From assembly GCA_964423445.1 (NCBI GenBank), contig CAYREQ010000001.1:1732-65731 (forward strand): a stretch of 64,000 nucleotides of DNA, written 5' to 3'. Positions 11,595 to 58,485 of this stretch are shown here, in pieces. Each line of letters starts with the position of its first letter. Position 1 is the stretch's first letter. This DNA is from an uncultured Candidatus Saccharibacteria bacterium (lineage in GTDB: Bacteria; Patescibacteriota; Minisyncoccia; Phycocordibacterales; UBA9973). The notes beneath the pieces are model-generated. The model was not told where the DNA came from. It did not search any database and saw only the letters and a list, made by a program, of their open reading frames with translations. The translations under genes were made by a program, and so were the position numbers.

Positions 11595-11670
11595 ATTAAT
11601 AAAATATCAAAACTAAAAAATACAGCCTAAAAAGCTGTATTTTTTAGTTTTTTTATATTAAACTATTAAC

Positions 11671-14020: not shown

Positions 14021-15190
14021 ATGAAGCAAAACAAGCAAACAGTATTTGTGGGACTTTCAGGTGGGGTGGACAGCGCTGTGTCTGCCACTTTGCTAAAAAA
14101 TAGTGGTTATGAGGTAGTGGGAGTTTTCATAAAGACTTGGCACCCAGACTTTATAGAATGCAATGAAGAAGATGAAAAGAGAGACGCTATGCGTGTAGCC
14201 GCGTATTTAGATATACCATTTTTGACCCTAGACCTAGAAGATGTATATAAAAAAGAAGTCGCAGACTATATGATAAGAGAGTATGAAGCTGGTAGAACTC
14301 CAAATCCAGATGTCATGTGCAATAAGGAAGTAAAGTTTGGAGCGTTCTTAAAAAAAGCACTTTCTATGGGGGCTGATTTTGTGGCGACAGGGCATTATGC
14401 ACAGCGGGTACAGAAAAATTCTTCCGCTTTACCCGCAAGTGGGCTCCGACACGGACAGAATTTTTCTGTACCCGCTGTGCTGGGGAAAGGCGTAGACCCA
14501 AGCAAAGACCAAAGTTATTTTCTTTGGACTTTAAATCAAAAACAATTATCTAAAATTTTATTTCCTATTGGGCATCTAAAGAAGACAGAAGTTAGAAAAT
14601 TGGCGAAAAAATTTAAATTACCTGTAGCAGAAAAACATGATAGTCAAGGTATTTGTTTTTTGGGTGCGATTGATTTAAAAGAATTTTTAAAGCATTACAT
14701 AAAATCAAAGAAGGGCAAAGTTCTAAATACGGAAGGGGAAGTGATAGGTCATCATGATGGAGCTGTATTTCATACGCTCGGAGAAAGACATGGTTTTGTA
14801 ATTACTAAAAAGAGTCCAAATGATGGAGCTTATTATGTGGTAGCTAAAGATATAAAGAAAAATATTTTGGTTGTGTCGCAGAAAAATGAGAAAGATACTT
14901 TTTCTCAGTCGCTCGGTCCCTCACTGCGTTCAGCCACTCCTTCTAAAAAGCACATTTCTCATTTTTCTGTAGATTTGGAAAATCCAAATTGGATTTCAGA
15001 AATTCCACAAGAAAATAAAAACTACACAGCGCAAGTTCGTTATCATGGAGAATTTTTACATTGTAAAATTAAAATCAAAACAAAAGACAGTGCAGAGATA
15101 ATTTTTGAAAAACCAGTTTTGGTAGCGAGCGGTCAATCTATAGTAGTCTATGATGATGACATTTGCCTAGGTGGTGGAGTAGTTGTATAA
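14021..15190 (+). CDS. mnmA: tRNA-specific 2-thiouridylase MnmA, carrying an in-frame insertion of a repeat element
   Basis: PP-loop VFVGLSGGVDSAVSA; TGHYA and KDQSYFLW motifs; the repeat at 14399-14480 lies between these two motifs. Confidence 0.9.
   Translation: MKQNKQTVFVGLSGGVDSAVSATLLKNSGYEVVGVFIKTWHPDFIECNEEDEKRDAMRVAAYLDIPFLTLDLEDVYKKEVADYMIREYEAGRTPNPDVMCNKEVKFGAFLKKALSMGADFVATGHYAQRVQKNSSALPASGLRHGQNFSVPAVLGKGVDPSKDQSYFLWTLNQKQLSKILFPIGHLKKTEVRKLAKKFKLPVAEKHDSQGICFLGAIDLKEFLKHYIKSKKGKVLNTEGEVIGHHDGAVFHTLGERHGFVITKKSPNDGAYYVVAKDIKKNILVVSQKNEKDTFSQSLGPSLRSATPSKKHISHFSVDLENPNWISEIPQENKNYTAQVRYHGEFLHCKIKIKTKDSAEIIFEKPVLVASGQSIVVYDDDICLGGGVVV
14399..14480 (+). repeat. copy A of a GC-rich core element inside a perfect 24-bp inverted repeat, in-frame within mnmA
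   Basis: gcacagcgggtacagaaaaattct [tccgctttacccgcaagtgggctccgacacggac] agaatttttctgtacccgctgtgc; the core is related to the copies at 40724-40759 and 42300-42335. Confidence 0.8.
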
Positions 15191-27909: not shown

Positions 27910-27948
27910 ATCGCAGTATTTACGCCATGGCGTAAATACTGCGGGTTG

Positions 27949-39720: not shown

Positions 39721-40056
39721 ATGAAAACAGAGGAATTTGCAGTAATAAAGACAGGCGGAAAGCAATACAAGGTCTCAAAAGGGGCCGTTATTTCTATTGA
39801 AAAGATCAAAAATGCTAAGGCTGATTACAAGAAAGGGGACAAGCTTACTTTTGATAAAGTATTGCTTGTAGATAGTGGCAAAGACGTGACTATCGGTACA
39901 CCTTATATAGATGGAGCAAAAGTAGAGGCTGAAATCTTAGAGGTTGGCCGTGCTCGAAAAATTCTTGTTGTAAAATATAAACAAAAATCTCGATACCTAC
40001 GAAGGAACGGGCACAGACAGCCTTTCTTTAAGATTAAAGTTACTTCTATAAACTAA
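39721..40056 (+). CDS. rplU: 50S ribosomal protein L21
   Basis: MKTEEFAVIKTGGKQYKVSKGAVISIEKI... Confidence 0.9.
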   Translation: MKTEEFAVIKTGGKQYKVSKGAVISIEKIKNAKADYKKGDKLTFDKVLLVDSGKDVTIGTPYIDGAKVEAEILEVGRARKILVVKYKQKSRYLRRNGHRQPFFKIKVTSIN

Positions 40057-40057
40057 T

Positions 40058-40087
40058 AAAAAAACCACTCGAGAGAGTGGTTTTTTT
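40058..40087. terminator. bidirectional terminator aaaaaaccactc-gaga-gagtggttttttt between rplU and recR
   Basis: Hairpin with A-runs and T-runs on opposite sides. Confidence 0.65.
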
Positions 40088-40700
40088 ATTGCCTATTTTT
40101 TAGGGCATTTTTTAGAGTGTCGTTGTCAGAGTATTCTAGCTCGGTGCCGGTGGAAAGACCTTTGCCTAATGATGATATTTTTATGTTTTGTTTTTCTGCA
40201 ATATCTTTTATTTGTTCGCGGACATATTGGTCAGTATAGTCACCTTGAGGGGACAATGAAAAAGCTATGATTATTTCTTGTAACCCACCAGAGGCAGACG
40301 AGATTTTCTTTTTTAATTCTTCAATACGTACTCGGCTTTTGGTATTTTTTTCTACTATCGGCACCAATCCACCCAAGATAAAATATTTTCCATTATAAAC
40401 TCCACTTTTTTCTACGCTCTCTAGGTCCGAATCTTTTTCTACTATCATGAGAGTACTCGCATCTATGTTTGGATTACTACAAATCTCACAGATAGTACTT
40501 TTTGTTTTTGTATTTAAAAAGAATTTATAACATTCCTTACATTGAGATACTTCTCTTTTCAGCTCCAAGACGAGCTTGCTCAAGCTTTCTGCATAGTTTG
40601 GATTTTTAAACATCAGGAAATAAACAAAACGCCTTGCTTGACGCTCCCCAATACCTGGAAAATCTTTAAATACTTCAGTTAATTTGTCTATTATGTCCAT
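40086..40700 (-). CDS. recR: recombination protein RecR
   Basis: C4 zinc finger CKECYKF...CEIC and a Toprim domain; 204 aa. Confidence 0.9.
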   Translation of the reverse strand: MDIIDKLTEVFKDFPGIGERQARRFVYFLMFKNPNYAESLSKLVLELKREVSQCKECYKFFLNTKTKSTICEICSNPNIDASTLMIVEKDSDLESVEKSGVYNGKYFILGGLVPIVEKNTKSRVRIEELKKKISSASGGLQEIIIAFSLSPQGDYTDQYVREQIKDIAEKQNIKISSLGKGLSTGTELEYSDNDTLKNALKNRQ

Positions 40701-40706
40701 AACTTT

Positions 40707-40776
40707 ATAAGTATAGCAAAAATTCGCCGCTTTACCCTAAAGGGCTCCGACACGGACTCATTTTTGCTATACTTAT
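40707..40776 (+). repeat. copy B of the GC-rich core element: 36-nt core inside a perfect 17-bp inverted repeat, between the recR start and the dnaB stop
   Basis: ataagtatagcaaaaat [tcgccgctttaccctaaagggctccgacacggactc] atttttgctatacttat. Confidence 0.85.
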
Positions 40777-40780
40777 CTTA

Positions 40781-42205: not shown

Positions 42206-42281
42206 GAAAGCATTTTAACATAGTCAGGAAATTGTGAAAGCTTAAAAGTGCGTAAGACTGTTATTAAAATGTGGAAAGTTT

Positions 42282-42353
42282 AGCAGGTAAAGTAAAAATT
42301 CGCCGCTTTACCCTAAAGGGCTCCGACACGAACTCATTTTTACTTTACCTGCT
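42282..42353 (+). repeat. copy C of the GC-rich core element: core differs from copy B by 1 nt, inside a perfect 18-bp inverted repeat, between the dnaB start and the trpS start
   Basis: agcaggtaaagtaaaaat [tcgccgctttaccctaaagggctccgacacgaactc] atttttactttacctgct. Confidence 0.85.
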
Positions 42354-42373
42354 CTACATGATAAGATATTATC

Positions 42374-43324
42374 ATGTCTAAAAAGGTATTATTGTCAGGA
42401 GTAAAGCCTACAGGTCGCCCACATCTGGGCAACTATTTTGGTGCCATGAAGCAATTCGTGGATTTATCATCAGATTACGACAGTTATGTATTTATTGCTG
42501 ATTATCACGCACTCAATTTTATACAAAACAAGGAAGAGATGAGAGAAAACATAATCGGGGTTTTGCTCGATTATTTAGCTGTAGGTCTCGATCCAAAAAA
42601 AGTTTGCATATTCAAACAAAGTGATATTTCTGAACACACAGAGCTGGCTTGGATTTTTGATACTATCACTACTATGCCATATCTCATGCGTGCACATGCT
42701 TTCAAAGATGCAGAAGCTAAAAATAAAGAAATCGTAGTAGGTACTTTCAATTATCCGATGCTGATGGCTGCAGATATCTTACTCTACAGTCCAGACATAG
42801 TTCCAGTAGGTCAAGATCAGCAACAACACGTAGAAATCACTAGAGACGTAGCTCAAAAGTTCAATAATACTTTTGGAGAAGTTTTTAAATTACCAGAACA
42901 TAAAATAATGAAAGAAGTAGCCGTAGTTCCTGGTACAGACGGACAAAAGATGAGTAAAAGCTATAACAATACTATTCCACTCTTTGCTGAATATGAAGAA
43001 ATAAAAAAAGCTGTGATGGGCATAGTCACAGACTCAAGCGGAGATATTCCAAAAAATGTTTTTGCCATACATAAACTCATCCGACCAGAGGCTGAACTCG
43101 CTCCAATATATGAAGAAAAAAAGGGTAGCTACAAAGAACTAAAAGAGCTACTAATAGAAGACTTGGAAAAATTTATAGCTCCAATGCGAGAAAAGAGAAA
43201 AGAATTTGAAAAAGATATTCCGAGCGCACTAGCAATACTAAAAGCCGGTGGAGAAAAAGCTAAAGCTGTAGCTAATGCAAAAATGCAAGAAGTTCGCGAA
43301 AAAATTGGAGTTAGTGTATATTAA
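42374..43324 (+). CDS. trpS: tryptophan--tRNA ligase
   Basis: HIGH-type motif TGRPHLGNY and KMSKS. Confidence 0.9.
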   Translation: MSKKVLLSGVKPTGRPHLGNYFGAMKQFVDLSSDYDSYVFIADYHALNFIQNKEEMRENIIGVLLDYLAVGLDPKKVCIFKQSDISEHTELAWIFDTITTMPYLMRAHAFKDAEAKNKEIVVGTFNYPMLMAADILLYSPDIVPVGQDQQQHVEITRDVAQKFNNTFGEVFKLPEHKIMKEVAVVPGTDGQKMSKSYNNTIPLFAEYEEIKKAVMGIVTDSSGDIPKNVFAIHKLIRPEAELAPIYEEKKGSYKELKELLIEDLEKFIAPMREKRKEFEKDIPSALAILKAGGEKAKAVANAKMQEVREKIGVSVY

Positions 43325-48755: not shown

Positions 48756-49151
48756 TTACGAGCTCAAAGACAACCCTTTCCTAAGTTTGGATGGGTTGTG
48801 GTGGTTTGATATACGAGACAATACGAGCCGATATCCGCCGAGTGAACCTTTTAACCATTTTGCTATGCGGGCAATAGTCGCAGACGAGAGACCAGTGTTT
48901 TCACTGATGGTATTGTATTGTATGTCTTTTGAGAGCAGGGAAGCTGCTTCGAGCCTGTTTGCAAATTCTTTTATTTCTAGTTCAGTCATGACATCTCGCA
49001 AGAAAGATTGCATCTCTTCTTTATTTTTCAAAGACAAAAAAGCTTGCACCAATTGTTGGTTTTTCTTTGTATTCCAATCTATCTTTGTGCCGATACCTTG
49101 GATCAGTTTTACTGTATCTATATTTGTATTTTTATTCATTCCTTTACTCAT
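48756..49151 (-). CDS. TrpR-like / YerC-YecD family DNA-binding protein
   Basis: FLRDVMTELEIKEFANRLEAASLL...ISENTGLSSATIARIAKWLK matches the Trp_repressor-fold HTH. The overlapping plus-strand ORF 48679-49164 is rejected. Confidence 0.65.
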   Translation of the reverse strand: MSKGMNKNTNIDTVKLIQGIGTKIDWNTKKNQQLVQAFLSLKNKEEMQSFLRDVMTELEIKEFANRLEAASLLSKDIQYNTISENTGLSSATIARIAKWLKGSLGGYRLVLSRISNHHNPSKLRKGLSLSS

Positions 49152-50919: not shown

Positions 50920-53400
50920 CTATTTCAAAAACTCTTCTATATTCTTCCCATCTCGTTTTAACCAAGCTATGTTGCCTTCGAGGCGTTCTACTAGCTGATC
51001 TATAGCTCTCTTGGCTCCTGGGGCATCAGCCGTCTTGAAGAATTTTACTATAGATTTTAAGTGACGCTCTTCTGCACTACCACCTATGGCTTTTACGGCT
51101 CGGCCGAGAGTGAGGCCTCCTTCGCCATAACGGGTGACGAGAGTTTTCCAATTCTTTTGCAAGAAATTCCACCAGATATCTCGGCCGAGCGGGTTTGATC
51201 CGACAGAGGACAGGATGCCTACGGTATCTTGGATACGCACATGCTCGGACATAGCAAACTCGCAAGCACTTTGTAAAAGCTTTGGGTCAGTAAAATCGCC
51301 GAGTGCTCCGCCGAGGCGATTTTTTTCTTCGTGCAAAGTCTCTGCTTTATATCTTTTTACAAATTCTTCGAAATCTTTTTTATTACCAGATGAAGCTACT
51401 ACTCCATACACAGCTCCGCGGATATCTGGATTTGTTTTTCCACTTTTAAATTTCTTTCGTGCCTCATCTATTACTTTTTTGTCACCAGCTCGGCCGAGGC
51501 GAGAAATTGCGAGAGAACGCAAAAGGGAATCAGTATGTGAATCATCGGGTTTTTTATTCCAGCCGAGGCGCTTTAAGGTAGGAGAGAATAAATTAATCAC
51601 AAATTTATTCAAGTTTTTATTGTGAGGGAGGAGCTGTTCTATTCTGGCTAGACCCATAGCTATTTCTAGCCACACAGTATAATTGTCTTCATTTTTATAG
51701 TTTGGTAAAAATTCTAGGGCATCTGTGGTGGGGATGACTCCAGCTTCTGATAAAGCAAACAAATCACGTATCACTCCGAGTCTGTCGCGGGCAGAAAGTT
51801 TTTTGTTTTGTATTGGCACATAGAGACCCTCCAACAACTCTTTGGAGTATGCGGTGCGATAAAATCCAGCCTCACCAAAATTTACTTTATTATTTTTGTA
51901 ATTTATAGGCATTTCCCATTTTGTTTTATCACTAATTTTTTTTGCAGAAATTGGGCTCGCAAAGAATCTCTTTTGAGAAAATATTACTTTCTCATGTTTC
52001 AATTCAGCTTTGACGACAGGGTAGCCGGGCTTACTCGTCCAATTGTTCATCATCTTGGCGACAGGTTTGCCAGACACTTTTTCAAATGCTTGCCATAGAT
52101 GGATGGTCTCGGTGTTTTTATAGCTGTGTTTTTTTAGATAGTATCGCAAACCATCTCGGAAATCTGTTTCGCCTAAATAATCTGCAAGCATTCGGATGAC
52201 AGATGCTCCTTTTGAATATGATACTTCATCAAAAATTTCTCCGATTTCGCTCGGGTGGTGTACTTCTACTTCTATAGGGTGTGTAGTAGCCAAAGCATCC
52301 AAACGCAGTGCCACACCGAGGTCATTTGTAGAAAACTGAGTCCATATGTCCCATTTTGGGAAAAGCTTGTCCACAGCTAGGTATTCTATATATGAAGCAA
52401 AGCCTTCATTTAGCCAGAGATGAGTCCACCACTCCATAGTCACTAAATTTCCAAACCATTGATGAGCTAGCTCGTGAGCGACTACGAGTGCCACCCACTG
52501 CTTGTTTGAGATAGAAGAATGTTCTTCGTCTACCAATAGAGCAGACTCTCTGTAAGTAATAGCGCCCCAGTTTTCCATAGCTCCTGAAGCAAAGTCTGGA
52601 ATAGCTATCATGTCTAAGACAGGAAGGGGATATTTTATATCAAAATATTTTTCGTAAAATTCTAGAGTCTTCACTGCACAATCTAGGGCAAACTTTGCCT
52701 GATGTTTTTTATTTGGTGTGGTGTATATTCGTACCCGGACACCATTTTTTGCCTTCTTTTCAATATATTCAAAATCTCCAATGATAAAAGCTAGGAGATA
52801 AGTAGACATTTTAGGTGTAGGAGAAAATTTTAAAATATCATAACCAGCTTCATGCTCTATCATAGACACTGGCAAGGTATTTGATATGGCAGTCTTGCCT
52901 TTGGGCACTATGAGTGAGATGTGAAAGACTGCTTTGTGGGCTGGCTCATCAAAACAAGGGAAAGCTCGGCGTGCATCAGTGGCTTCAAATTGGGTGGTAG
53001 CCATAAAAGCTTCTTTGTCTTTTATCATGTAGCTACTCCTATAAAATCCTCGCATCTTGTCGTTTAGAATTCCCTTGAATACGAGAGACAATTTTATTTT
53101 TCCAGTCGGAATTATCTTTGGGAATAAAAAAGTGGCTGTCTCGGATTTTTCATCATAAGAAATTTTTGCAAATATTTTTTCTTTACCAATCAAAACATCT
53201 GCTGTGTCTATCTCTATTTCTTTTGAATGCAGAGTGATAGATTTTGTATTAGATAGAATTGATAAATAAATTGTCTCGACTCCACTGAAAGTAAAATTTT
53301 CTAGGTCTGGCTTTAGCCCTATCTCGTATTCTAGGGGTATTATATTTTTTGAGAGGCGGACATTTGACGATGATTTTTTAGGCTTATTTTTATTTTGCAT
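50920..53400 (-). CDS. pepN: aminopeptidase N (M1 family zinc metallopeptidase)
   Basis: GAMEN and HELAHQWFGNLVT...WLNEGFASY motifs; 826 aa. Confidence 0.9.
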   Translation of the reverse strand: MQNKNKPKKSSSNVRLSKNIIPLEYEIGLKPDLENFTFSGVETIYLSILSNTKSITLHSKEIEIDTADVLIGKEKIFAKISYDEKSETATFLFPKIIPTGKIKLSLVFKGILNDKMRGFYRSSYMIKDKEAFMATTQFEATDARRAFPCFDEPAHKAVFHISLIVPKGKTAISNTLPVSMIEHEAGYDILKFSPTPKMSTYLLAFIIGDFEYIEKKAKNGVRVRIYTTPNKKHQAKFALDCAVKTLEFYEKYFDIKYPLPVLDMIAIPDFASGAMENWGAITYRESALLVDEEHSSISNKQWVALVVAHELAHQWFGNLVTMEWWTHLWLNEGFASYIEYLAVDKLFPKWDIWTQFSTNDLGVALRLDALATTHPIEVEVHHPSEIGEIFDEVSYSKGASVIRMLADYLGETDFRDGLRYYLKKHSYKNTETIHLWQAFEKVSGKPVAKMMNNWTSKPGYPVVKAELKHEKVIFSQKRFFASPISAKKISDKTKWEMPINYKNNKVNFGEAGFYRTAYSKELLEGLYVPIQNKKLSARDRLGVIRDLFALSEAGVIPTTDALEFLPNYKNEDNYTVWLEIAMGLARIEQLLPHNKNLNKFVINLFSPTLKRLGWNKKPDDSHTDSLLRSLAISRLGRAGDKKVIDEARKKFKSGKTNPDIRGAVYGVVASSGNKKDFEEFVKRYKAETLHEEKNRLGGALGDFTDPKLLQSACEFAMSEHVRIQDTVGILSSVGSNPLGRDIWWNFLQKNWKTLVTRYGEGGLTLGRAVKAIGGSAEERHLKSIVKFFKTADAPGAKRAIDQLVERLEGNIAWLKRDGKNIEEFLK

Positions 53401-58215: not shown

Positions 58216-58287
58216 GGCCCTATCGTCTAACGGTTAGGACGTGGCCTTTTCAAGGCTAAAATCAGAGTTCGATTCTCTGTAGGGTCA
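58216..58287 (+). tRNA. tRNA-Glu (anticodon TTC), no encoded CCA
   Basis: Acceptor GGCCCTA/TAGGGTC (one G-U pair); D-arm CGTCTAACGGTTAGGACG; anticodon loop TTTTCAA; T-loop TTCGATT. Confidence 0.8.
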
Positions 58288-58335
58288 CAAATACTAAAAA
58301 AGAGTCCACTACTGGGCTCTTTTTTAGTATTTGTG
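58288..58335 (+). terminator. long hairpin caaatactaaaaaagag-tccactactgg-gctcttttttagtatttg after tRNA-Glu
   Basis: Seen in the sequence. Confidence 0.55.
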
Positions 58336-58485
58336 AAGACGGAGGCATAATTCGTGAGTACACGAATAGCCGAGTCCGGGTCTGGAAAATTTTCTTTTGA
58401 CGAAAAGAAAATTATTGTGGACCACGTAAAAAAAGAACCGCCTGAGAACGCGGTTCTCAGGCGGGGTTTTGTGACTGATTTATGT

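What the first reader, a model, noticed from the sequence alone, without database searches (positions are those of the whole stretch)
42282..42353. Element architecture: conserved core with two mini-hairpins, AAAAAT/ATTTTT ends, and copy-specific inverted duplication of the flank
In all three copies the conserved part has the form AAAAAT-TCGCCGCTTTACCC(TAAA)GGGCTCCGACACGGACTC-ATTTTT. The core contains two small hairpins: CCC-N4/6-GGG, whose loop differs (TAAA versus GCAAGT in the mnmA copy), and TCCG-ACA-CGGA. Outside the conserved part, each copy has a different perfectly complementary flank pair of 11-15 nt. The pairs are ataagtatagc/gctatacttat, agcaggtaaagt/actttacctgct and gcacagcgggtacag/ctgtacccgctgtgc. 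Transposon target-site duplications are direct, whereas these are inverted. That points to an unusual insertion mechanism, such as hairpin priming, template switching or a fold-back intermediate. Another reading is a functional RNA hairpin whose stem is maintained by complete covariation. Either reading is uncommon and worth characterising.
Basis: seen in the sequence. Interest (0 to 1): 0.8.

Follow-up and report, generated by a model that had tools for sequence, protein, structure and literature searches.

The report
In-frame hairpin repeat of CPR bacteria
The three copies belong to a roughly 77-base hairpin-shaped mobile repeat that is widespread in ultra-small CPR (Patescibacteria) bacteria and sits either in tiny intergenic gaps or, read through in frame, inside essential genes, much like the palindromic elements of Rickettsia, which matters because no such element appears to have been described for this phylum.

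Summary
The sequence observation is correct. Three copies share a conserved core and carry perfect, copy-specific inverted arms of 24, 17 and 18 nt. The same core occurs at least 126 times in 53 other CPR genomes.

The reading "inverted duplication of the flank" fails. At the trpS-upstream site at least 12 relatives have an empty 21-nt spacer. The window and its closest relative carry a 77-nt insertion there that contains both arms. Related arms also recur at unrelated loci.

About two-thirds of copies lie inside housekeeping ORFs (MnmA, LigA, LeuRS, IleRS, UvrC, Tgt and others). All of these are in frame and free of stop codons, in four frame/orientation classes. The rest fill short spacers.

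The stem shows massive Watson-Crick covariation with almost no G·U pairs. Orthologous copies differ by compensated double changes.

The same protein loops are occupied by several other hairpin families, including a second one in this mnmA.

Best reading: a non-autonomous palindromic mobile element that behaves like the Rickettsia palindromic elements (RPEs). It is probably recognised as a DNA hairpin, and its arms co-evolve. The mobilising enzyme and the insertion chemistry are unknown. I found no published description.

The parts
14399..14480 (+). Copy 1 of family A. It is an 82-nt hairpin (arms 14399-14422 and 14457-14480, core 14425-14452, P2 loop GCAAGT). It lies in frame inside mnmA (ORF 14021..15190) and encodes QRVQKNSSALPASGLRHGQNFSVPAV between GHYA and LGKGVDPSKDQSYFL.
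   Evidence: The site is empty in four homologues (P0057, P0066, P0014, P0048; DNA read for P0057 as L117) and holds other insert families in most others. It adds about 15 residues relative to solved MnmA 9hlv. The AlphaFold model has pLDDT below 50 for residues 134-148, between strands 126-131 and 152-156.
40707..40776 (+). Copy 2 of family A. It is a 70-nt hairpin (arms of 17 nt, core 40728-40753, P2 loop TAAA). It fills the 80-nt spacer 40701-40780 between the dnaB stop (40781) and the recR start (40700), both on the minus strand.
   Evidence: The same spacer is 1-20 nt in about 36 relatives and carries unrelated hairpin elements in about 12. Gene identities come from synteny and Pfam.
42281..42357 (+). 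Copy 3 of family A (the finding). It is a 77-nt insertion: T, then the hairpin 42282-42353 (arms of 18 nt, core 42304-42329, P2 loop TAAA), then CTAC. It sits between the divergent dnaB and trpS starts, immediately upstream of the trpS -10-like box.
   Evidence: At least 12 relatives have the empty junction GAATT|ATGATAAT, and L035 (TrpRS 95% identical) shares the insertion. Against L035 there are two compensated double substitutions in the arms, and the 26-nt core is identical.
14879..14969 (+). A family B element. It is a second palindromic in-frame insert in mnmA with an unrelated core, arms CAGAAAAATGAGAAAGATACTTTTT / AAAAAGCACATTTCTCATTTTTCTG, and peptide FSQSLGPSLRSATPSKKH. It is the same kind of element but a different family.
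   Evidence: The site is empty-like in about 28 of 120 homologues and holds several families in the rest. The same family occupies the first mnmA hot spot in L119. AlphaFold pLDDT is below 50 for residues 292-311.

Best explanation
The three copies belong to a family of small (about 77-83 nt) non-autonomous palindromic mobile DNA elements of Patescibacteria (Paceibacteria/Nomurabacteria).

Each element is one long hairpin:
- Weakly conserved ends, CAG...CTG, sit about 21 nt 5' and 23 nt 3' of the core and are flanked by CTTCG-like pentamers.
- The outer stem of 10-12 bp is hypervariable but self-complementary.
- The inner stem is conserved (AAAATTYYSC / GRMYHAATTTT).
- The apex is an invariant 26-31 nt core containing a small CCC...GGG hairpin whose loop subtype is uniform within a genome.

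Shown:
- The whole hairpin, arms included, is inserted DNA.
- It is present or absent among close relatives.
- It survives only where it does no harm: in short intergenic spacers, or in frame and stop-free in surface loops of housekeeping proteins, where it is most likely translated as a disordered loop on a beta-hairpin.
- Several other hairpin families share the same permissive sites.

Inferred:
- Spread depends on an unidentified trans-acting enzyme. It would read the core and inner stem by sequence and the outer stem only by shape, as a DNA hairpin or cruciform.
- Arm complementarity is kept by selection for a foldable stem in copies that still transpose, by replication template switching that perfects quasi-palindromes, or by both.
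For: Distribution:
- More than 116 genome stretches and 126 copies, all in CPR MAGs, in 53 genomes plus the window.
- None in viral contigs, plasmids or phages.
- None in 427 kb of relatives' DNA that was not selected for the core.

Insertion:
- Empty against filled sites with precise junctions.

Arms are part of the element:
- Position matrix and modal stem ends.
- Forty-nine pairs of related arms at unrelated loci, including L016/L029, L030/L094 and L095 x2 within single genomes.

Coding tolerance:
- 81 of 126 copies lie in long ORFs, all in frame, in 4 frame/orientation classes giving different peptides at the same protein site.
- None of the other 46 copies disrupts an ORF.
- The inserts are low-confidence loops between paired strands in the model and are extra relative to solved MnmA.

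DNA-level rather than peptide or RNA constraint:
- The same nucleotides are conserved in three frames and both orientations.
- The stem is Watson-Crick only.
- There is no Rfam family.

Ongoing dynamics:
- Core subtypes are genome-specific.
- Different families occupy the same mnmA sites in proteins 78-83% identical.

Arm co-evolution:
-.
- Quasi-palindrome template switching is an established mutational route (PMC7202029).

Analogue: Rickettsia palindromic elements insert in frame in many genes (PMC10969869).
Against: - No transposase, nuclease or autonomous partner was found. The window is housekeeping only.
- No clear target-site duplication.
- Most copies that share a genome have unrelated outer arms. 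Simple recent copy-and-paste does not predict this.
- The 26-nt core is identical at orthologous sites although flanks have diverged 12%. This could mean host-level function rather than selfish maintenance. The wider sample was selected by exact core match, so it cannot measure core decay.
- At the mnmA site the net gain over the 'empty' allele is 60 nt, not 82. That locus is therefore a replacement, or the 'empty' allele is a footprint.
- Translation of the inserts is inferred from open frames, not observed.
Confidence: 0.72

Rival explanations
1. It is a functional structured RNA, either a cis-acting mRNA element or a small RNA. Its long stem is kept by compensatory evolution and its apical core is bound by a factor.
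For: - Very strong covariation and a conserved apex.
- Fold z-scores of -5.5 to -10 on both strands.
- Compensated changes between orthologous copies in place.
- The arm mismatch spectrum is asymmetric (5'A:3'C 71 against C:A 27, G:T 18, T:G 15). These would be G·U pairs on the minus strand.
Against: - G·U is only about 2% of stem pairs.
- The P2 extension uses T·G on the plus strand in 59 copies, so no single strand is favoured.
- 60 copies are sense and 20 antisense to the host ORF.
- Copy 3 lies between divergent promoters.
- There is no Rfam match.
- The sites are empty in close relatives.
- Other unrelated hairpin families substitute at the same sites.
- The mismatches are partly inherited within subfamilies, so the counts are not independent events.
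Confidence: 0.1
2. Only the constant part (AAAAAT-core-ATTTTT) is mobile. Each insertion creates the outer arms by inverted duplication of the local flank, through hairpin priming or fold-back.
For: - Arms differ between almost all copies in one genome while the core is uniform.
- In mnmA the 5' arm lines up with the empty-site sequence (GCGCAAAACAAAAAAAATTCT against GCACAGCGGGTACAGAAAAATTCT), and the net gain of 60 nt is close to core plus one arm.
- Some stems run into host codons or stop codons, for example GCA of GHYA and L102.
Against: - The empty trpS-upstream site lacks both arms in at least 12 relatives, and the 77-nt insert carries both.
- Arms share a sub-consensus, C[AG]G[GA]T[AG]CAG[GAC]AAAAT. 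Near-identical 12-mers occur in unrelated host genes (MnmA, IleRS, LeuRS) and at different loci of one genome.
- Orthologous IleRS copies (L017, L076) have identical upstream flanks but different arms.
Confidence: 0.05
3. It is a host-beneficial DNA site, that is, a dispersed binding or structural motif for a chromosome-organising, replication or repair protein. On this view it is kept by selection on the host rather than being selfish DNA.
For: - The core is invariant across 54 genomes and at orthologous sites.
- Copies are retained inside essential genes.
- Core orientation is co-directional with local genes and GC skew in about 68% of copies.
Against: - The distribution is patchy, with 0 copies in 427 kb of relatives' DNA.
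- The sites are empty in close relatives.
- Other families with unrelated cores occupy the same sites.
- The orientation bias is confounded with gene strand (r = 0.85).
- The apparent core invariance is partly an artefact of selecting copies with an exact pattern.
Confidence: 0.08

Closest known systems
Rickettsia palindromic elements (RPE-1 to RPE-10; Ogata et al. 2000; reviewed in PMC10969869)
   Same: Both are short palindromic repeats found in intergenic DNA and, unusually often, inserted in frame and stop-free in unrelated housekeeping genes. Both come in several families per genome, and no transposase is known for either. The inserted peptide is thought to sit on the protein surface.
   Different: - Host: CPR/Patescibacteria rather than Rickettsia.
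- Size: about 77-83 nt against about 100-150 bp.
- Sequence: unrelated as far as can be judged.
- The outer stem is hypervariable with near-complete compensation, around an invariant apical core.
- The core subtype is uniform within a genome.
- Many families share the same protein loops.
REP / BIME / REPIN elements and their RAYT transposases (PMC3733652)
   Same: Both are dispersed short hairpin-forming repeats recognised as hairpins. Related arms occur at many loci, and several families can occur per genome.
   Different: REPs are 20-40 nt, GC-rich, tagged by GTAG or CGTC, and extragenic. This element has a 36-nt structured loop, AT-rich arms and CAG/CTG ends, and two-thirds of its copies are intragenic. 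No RAYT has been identified.
Bacterial MITEs such as Correia/NEMIS, ERIC/IRU, RUP and BOX (PMC3184786, PMC2759123)
   Same: They are small and non-autonomous, have inverted ends, are occasionally intragenic with open frames, and fold as hairpins.
   Different: Classical MITEs have conserved terminal inverted repeats (TIRs), a target-site duplication (TSD) and a recognisable parent insertion sequence (IS). Here the termini are the least conserved part, no duplication is seen, and no parent was found.
Coding palindromes and organellar palindromic elements (Nematomorpha mitochondria, PMC6649704)
   Same: Both are perfect inverted repeats embedded in translated genes. Both strike a compromise between DNA secondary structure and protein function.
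   Different: In Nematomorpha both arms encode conserved protein regions and no shared mobile core is involved. Here a shared core and its arms are inserted into variable loops.
Quasi-palindrome template-switch mutagenesis (PMC7202029; PMC10710096)
   Same: It is a replication mechanism that converts imperfect inverted repeats into perfect ones. It can also extend arms into flanks, which would yield concerted arm evolution without selection.
   Different: It is a mutational process, not an element. It could explain arm perfection but not the spread of the core.

Membership tests
Rickettsia palindromic elements (RPE) | Palindromic repeat inserted in frame, without stops, in many unrelated ORFs as well as in intergenic DNA | tested here: met
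   81 of 126 copies lie in long ORFs, all in frame. The other 46 are intergenic and none disrupts a gene.
Rickettsia palindromic elements (RPE) | Sequence belongs to one of the RPE consensus families of Rickettsia, about 100-150 bp long | not tested
   No RPE consensus was available in the tools. The host is CPR and the unit is about 77 nt, so membership is unlikely and only the behaviour is shared.
REP / REPIN-RAYT | 20-40 nt GC-rich imperfect palindrome carrying a GTAG or CGTC tag at one end | tested here: not met
   The position matrix shows CAG/CTG ends, AT-rich arms and no GTAG or CGTC. The hairpin is 70-82 nt with a 34-36 nt loop.
REP / REPIN-RAYT | Extragenic location | tested here: not met
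   About two-thirds of copies lie inside ORFs.
REP / REPIN-RAYT | A RAYT (Y1 HUH transposase) gene in the genome, flanked by the repeats | not tested
   Only 64 kb of this genome and 8-kb pieces of the others were available. Pfam labels of the window's genes are all housekeeping.
Classical MITE | Target-site duplication of fixed length flanking the element | tested here: not met
   The junction at site 3 shows no duplication of 2 nt or more. The flanking pentamers are identical in only 6 of 122 copies. Within-copy identity is only slightly above between-copy identity (1.90 against 1.45 of 5).
Classical MITE | Parent autonomous insertion sequence with the same terminal inverted repeats | not tested
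   None lies in the window. Paired copies flank ordinary genes, for example SerRS in L095. No genome-wide search was possible.
IS200/IS605-type single-strand hairpin elements (PATE) | Insertion 3' of a fixed tetra- or pentanucleotide without duplication, strand-specific, dependent on TnpA | tested here: inconclusive
   There is a weak CTTCG-like consensus on both sides. The wobble signals are mixed between strands. The orientation test is confounded with gene strand. TnpA was not searched.
Curated structured RNA family (Rfam) | Match to a covariance model at its gathering score | tested here: not met
   The window yields only two tRNAs at gathering score. A permissive scan of the element gives only sub-threshold miRNA-like hairpin hits.
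Intrinsic terminator | Short GC-rich stem, small loop, followed by a U tract | tested here: not met
   The terminator scan does not call it. The stem is AT-rich, the loop is 34-36 nt, and many copies lie inside ORFs.
TIGR stem-loop guide-RNA units (TIGR-Tas; bioRxiv 10.64898/2026.09.09.750476) | Tandem array of units with box C / box D motifs flanking two spacers, next to a Tas (Nop-domain) gene | tested here: not met
   The copies are dispersed singletons 1.5-26 kb apart. Neither strand of the element contains TGATGA or CTGA (direct reading). In this element the variable segments are complementary to each other and the interior is conserved, the reverse of a spacer/repeat layout.

The most novel reading that the evidence does not exclude
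The family A element, family B and the other hairpin inserts seen at the same sites may form a large, undescribed superfamily of CPR hairpin elements. Such a superfamily would spread by a new hairpin-templated route, for example a single-strand half-element whose second arm is re-synthesised by fold-back at each cycle, or an enzyme that recognises shape plus an apical core. That would explain arms that are perfect but unrelated around a core that is uniform within a genome. It would also be systematically remodelling the surface loops of essential enzymes across a whole phylum.
Probability: 0.2. Interest if true: 0.85.

Novelty: new variant of a known kind. Interest (0 to 1): 0.6.

Why it matters
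CPR bacteria have some of the smallest and most streamlined genomes known. Even so, this work indicates they are colonised by several families of hairpin repeats that appear to be translated inside enzymes such as MnmA, DNA ligase, LeuRS, IleRS, UvrC and Tgt.

This has four consequences:
- It explains much of the length variation among CPR orthologues.
- It explains some assembly breaks in MAGs.
- It offers a natural experiment on how proteins tolerate and recruit new loops.
- It defines a clean sequence signature (invariant core, shape-only stem) with which to hunt for the unknown mobilising enzyme.

It is also a second, much broader example of the RPE phenomenon, which has remained a curiosity of Rickettsia since 2000.

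Tried and rejected
- **Replication-strand orientation (GC and AT skew).** The core strand is G-rich in 85 of 123 loci. However, skew correlates at r = 0.85 with gene strand, so the test cannot separate replication from transcription.
- **Target-site duplication.** Only a weak excess of identity between flanking pentamers was found, and no duplication at the resolved junction.
- **Diverged copies.** An nhmmer search with a core profile found nothing beyond the three window copies in 491 kb. Core decay therefore could not be measured without ascertainment bias.
- **Rfam.** Negative at both gathering and permissive thresholds.
- **Other collections.** No hits in viral contigs, plasmids or phages.
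- **Composite-transposon idea.** Two copies in L095 simply flank SerRS.
- **Core-only replacement into old arms.** Rejected. Orthologous sites with the same arms always have the same core subtype, and sites with different subtypes have different arms.
- **Insertion into pre-existing palindromes.** Rejected by the empty sites.
- **Selected peptide module.** Rejected. The same site carries the element in different frames and orientations, giving unrelated peptides (ALPASGLRHG, LYPQAGSDT, RVGAPVERVKR).
- **Assembly or MDA chimera artefact.** Rejected. The element appears in 54 independent assemblies, at orthologous in-frame positions.
- **Clustering of insert peptides.** Single-linkage clustering merged most inserts through their shared arm-encoded residues and gave no usable family count.
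- **Resemblance of the arm at 40707-40717 to the ancestral recR -10 box.** The similarity is limited to ATAGC and was judged to be chance.

Full report
**Observation**

The region 42282-42353 is a perfect 18-nt inverted repeat around 36 nt. The 36 nt contain CGCTTTACCC-TAAA-GGGCTCCGACAC. Two further copies lie at 14399-14480 (24-nt arms, loop GCAAGT) and 40707-40776 (17-nt arms). Three matches to the 18-nt core compare with 0.01 expected from shuffles. All three hairpins fold far better than shuffled controls on either strand, as RNA or DNA (z = -5.5 to -11).

**Context in the window**

The window is a housekeeping stretch of a CPR (Patescibacteria, Paceibacteria/Nomurabacteria-like) genome.
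- Copy 1 lies inside mnmA (14021..15190). It is in frame, between the conserved GHYA and KDQSYFL motifs.
- Copy 2 fills the 80-nt spacer between the dnaB stop and the recR start.
- Copy 3 lies between the divergent dnaB and trpS starts.

**The family**

All were from CPR MAGs. Together with the window they hold 126 copies in 54 genomes. The pattern does not occur in viral contigs, plasmids or phages. A profile search of 427 kb from relatives that had not been selected for the core found none.

A position matrix anchored on the core gives the following picture:
- Strong conservation from -10 to -1 (AAAATTYYSC) and from +1 to +12.
- A weak CAGA/TCTG signal about 20 nt out.
- A modal stem end 21 nt 5' and 23 nt 3' of the core.
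- CTTCG-like pentamers just outside the stem.
- Background composition beyond about -26/+28.

So AAAAAT/ATTTTT is the inner stem, not the end of the element.

**Structure**

On a 122-sequence alignment all 20 outer stem pairs show changes on both sides. 86.7% of cells are paired, against 60.4% in shuffles and 35-50% when partners are slid. G·U/U·G make up only about 2% of pairs. The CCC/GGG hairpin is invariant and its extension covaries (U·G 59, G-C 28, A-U 5).

The base just 5' of the core covaries with position +2 (C-G 66, U-A 12, G-C 10). This supports a closing helix YCG/CGR.

Arm mismatches are asymmetric (5'A:3'C 71, C:A 27, G:T 18, T:G 15), also in non-coding copies. On the minus strand these would be G·U pairs. 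However, the P2 wobble favours the plus strand, and many mismatches are inherited within subfamilies. I therefore draw no strand conclusion.

**Is the flank duplicated?**

Synteny let me recover empty sites.
- Between GTTATTAAAATGTGGA and the trpS ATG, at least 12 relatives have the 21-nt GAATT|ATGATAATATATTCTT. The window and L035 (TrpRS 95% identical) have 98 nt. The difference is a 77-nt insertion containing both arms.
- The dnaB-recR spacer is 1-20 nt in about 36 relatives and 80 nt here.

Neither arm pre-exists and neither is a copy of the flank.

Independently, 60 pairs of copies share at least 10 of 12 outer-arm bases. Only 11 of these pairs are the same locus. Forty-nine are at unrelated loci, against about 0.5 expected by chance (my estimate). 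Examples are GCGGGTACAG in MnmA, IleRS, LeuRS and a fourth gene. Three of the pairs lie within single genomes. Arms therefore travel with the element.

The flank-duplication idea survives only as a possible explanation for stems that run a few bases beyond the canonical end. An example is the GCA codon of GHYA. It could also bear on the odd arithmetic at mnmA, where the gain over the empty allele is +60 nt.

**Coding copies**

81 of 126 copies lie in ORFs that stay open for at least 120 nt on both sides. They fall into four frame/orientation classes with different peptides: ALP(AS/SLR)GLRHG, RFTLKGSDT, LYPQAGSDT and RVGAP(V/E)ERVKR. The other 46 are intergenic, mostly filling short spacers, and none interrupts a gene.

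The same positions recur in orthologous proteins:
- the MnmA hairpin;
- the LigA zinc ribbon;
- LeuRS;
- IleRS;
- UvrC;
- Tgt;
- a pseudouridine synthase.

At these positions the element occurs in either orientation. Because different frames give unrelated peptides, the constraint is on nucleotides, not on the peptide.

Against solved MnmA the two inserts are extra residues. In an AlphaFold model they are the lowest-confidence segments (residues 134-148 and 292-311), lying between paired strands.

**Hot spots and other families**

Among 120 MnmA homologues about 70-84% identical to the window protein, site 1 is short in 8 and filled in 112. Site 2 is short in about 28. The fillings belong to several DNA families. 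One family gives SLDGRFRPKGGEK on one strand and FLHPSGGTFRPKN on the other.

The window's mnmA carries a second element of another family at 14879-14969. The closest relatives (78-83% identical) carry other families at site 1. The two intergenic sites also hold unrelated nested hairpins in other relatives. Element boundaries vary by a few codons between lineages. I therefore read the hot spots as the few permissive places in a dense genome, not as sequence targeting.

**Dynamics**

- The P2 loop subtype is uniform within a genome. Examples are 6 x TAAA, 5 x GCAAGC and 6 x TCTCT[AG]CGG. At orthologous sites the subtype follows the genome rather than the site.
- Most outer arms within a genome are unrelated.
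- Window against L035: coding flanks are about 87.5% identical and the 76-nt left intergenic flank 90.7%, the arms 78-89% and the 26-nt core 100%. There are two compensated double substitutions.
- Over six orthologous pairs there are 7 compensated changes, against about 1.7 expected, and 11 single changes.
- The paralogues L016 and L029 also differ by two compensated changes.

**Interpretation**

The best-supported reading is a non-autonomous palindromic mobile element that behaves like the Rickettsia palindromic elements (PMC10969869). Insertion, in-frame tolerance and arm inheritance are shown. The following points are inferred:
- recognition as a DNA hairpin by an unknown enzyme;
- maintenance of arm complementarity by selection for foldability in active copies and/or by quasi-palindrome template switching (PMC7202029).

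TIGR stem-loop units, which do occur in CPR, were considered and rejected. There are no arrays and no box C/D motifs, and the pattern of conservation is the reverse (direct reading).

Full-text searches found no description of such elements in CPR.

**Verdict**

The proposed insertion mechanism is refuted at the one junction that could be resolved. The covariation is real but does not imply an RNA function. The element is a new variant, in a new phylum, of the rare class of in-frame palindromic repeats, and its dynamics (uniform core, divergent perfect arms) remain unexplained.

Noticed in passing
window 14879-14969: A second palindromic in-frame insert lies in mnmA. Its core is unrelated (CTCAGTCGCTCGGTCCCTCACTGCGTTCAGCCACTCCTTCT) and its arms are about 25 nt. 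It encodes FSQSLGPSLRSATPSKKH. The same family occupies the first mnmA hot spot in relatives such as L119.
   Followed up: partly
L123-L191, dnaB-recR spacer and trpS upstream spacer (for example L163, L171, L141, L143, L125, L168, L150, L152, L165): Other, unrelated nested-hairpin elements of 40-200 nt occupy exactly the same two intergenic spots in relatives. Examples are CCTCCCCCT-ACAT-AGGGGGAGG inside ACCCCC...GGGGGT, and CCCGTACGAAAT...ATTTCGTACGGG.
   Followed up: no
window 51098-51190: 12-nt GC-rich inverted arms GCTCGGCCGAGA / TCTCGGCCGAGC surround 69 nt inside the M1-peptidase ORF (50920..53400, minus strand). There is no match in the fetched loci. This may be another intragenic hairpin insert.
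   Followed up: no
window 42358-42376 and relatives: A conserved TATGATAATAT box lies 7-10 nt upstream of the trpS ATG in at least 12 relatives. This suggests an extended -10 promoter and a leaderless or near-leaderless trpS mRNA. Copy 3 sits immediately upstream of the box, and its 3' arm supplies a -35-like TTTACC.
   Followed up: partly
L192, L193, L194 (Logan contigs of SRR12487045): Short-read contigs of the same organism are short (7-16 kb). One ends just after recR, at the position of copy 2, which suggests that these repeats break assemblies.
   Followed up: no
L120 3647-3937 and 2502-3689: dnaB is called as two ORFs (96 and 395 aa) in one relative. This could be a frameshift, an assembly error or an insert at the N-terminal domain boundary.
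   Followed up: no
window 27912-27943; 11600-11660; 58285-58336; 40055-40090: Other strong hairpins are unrelated to the family. One is a perfect 32-nt palindrome (CGCAGTATTTACGCCA/TGGCGTAAATACTGCG). The others are terminator-like AT-rich stems after genes and after tRNA-Glu.
   Followed up: no
window 48756-49151 (minus strand) and L122 3109-3435: A small Trp-repressor-family (PF01371) gene is present in this trpS neighbourhood in the window genome. In a relative it lies directly after trpS.
   Followed up: no
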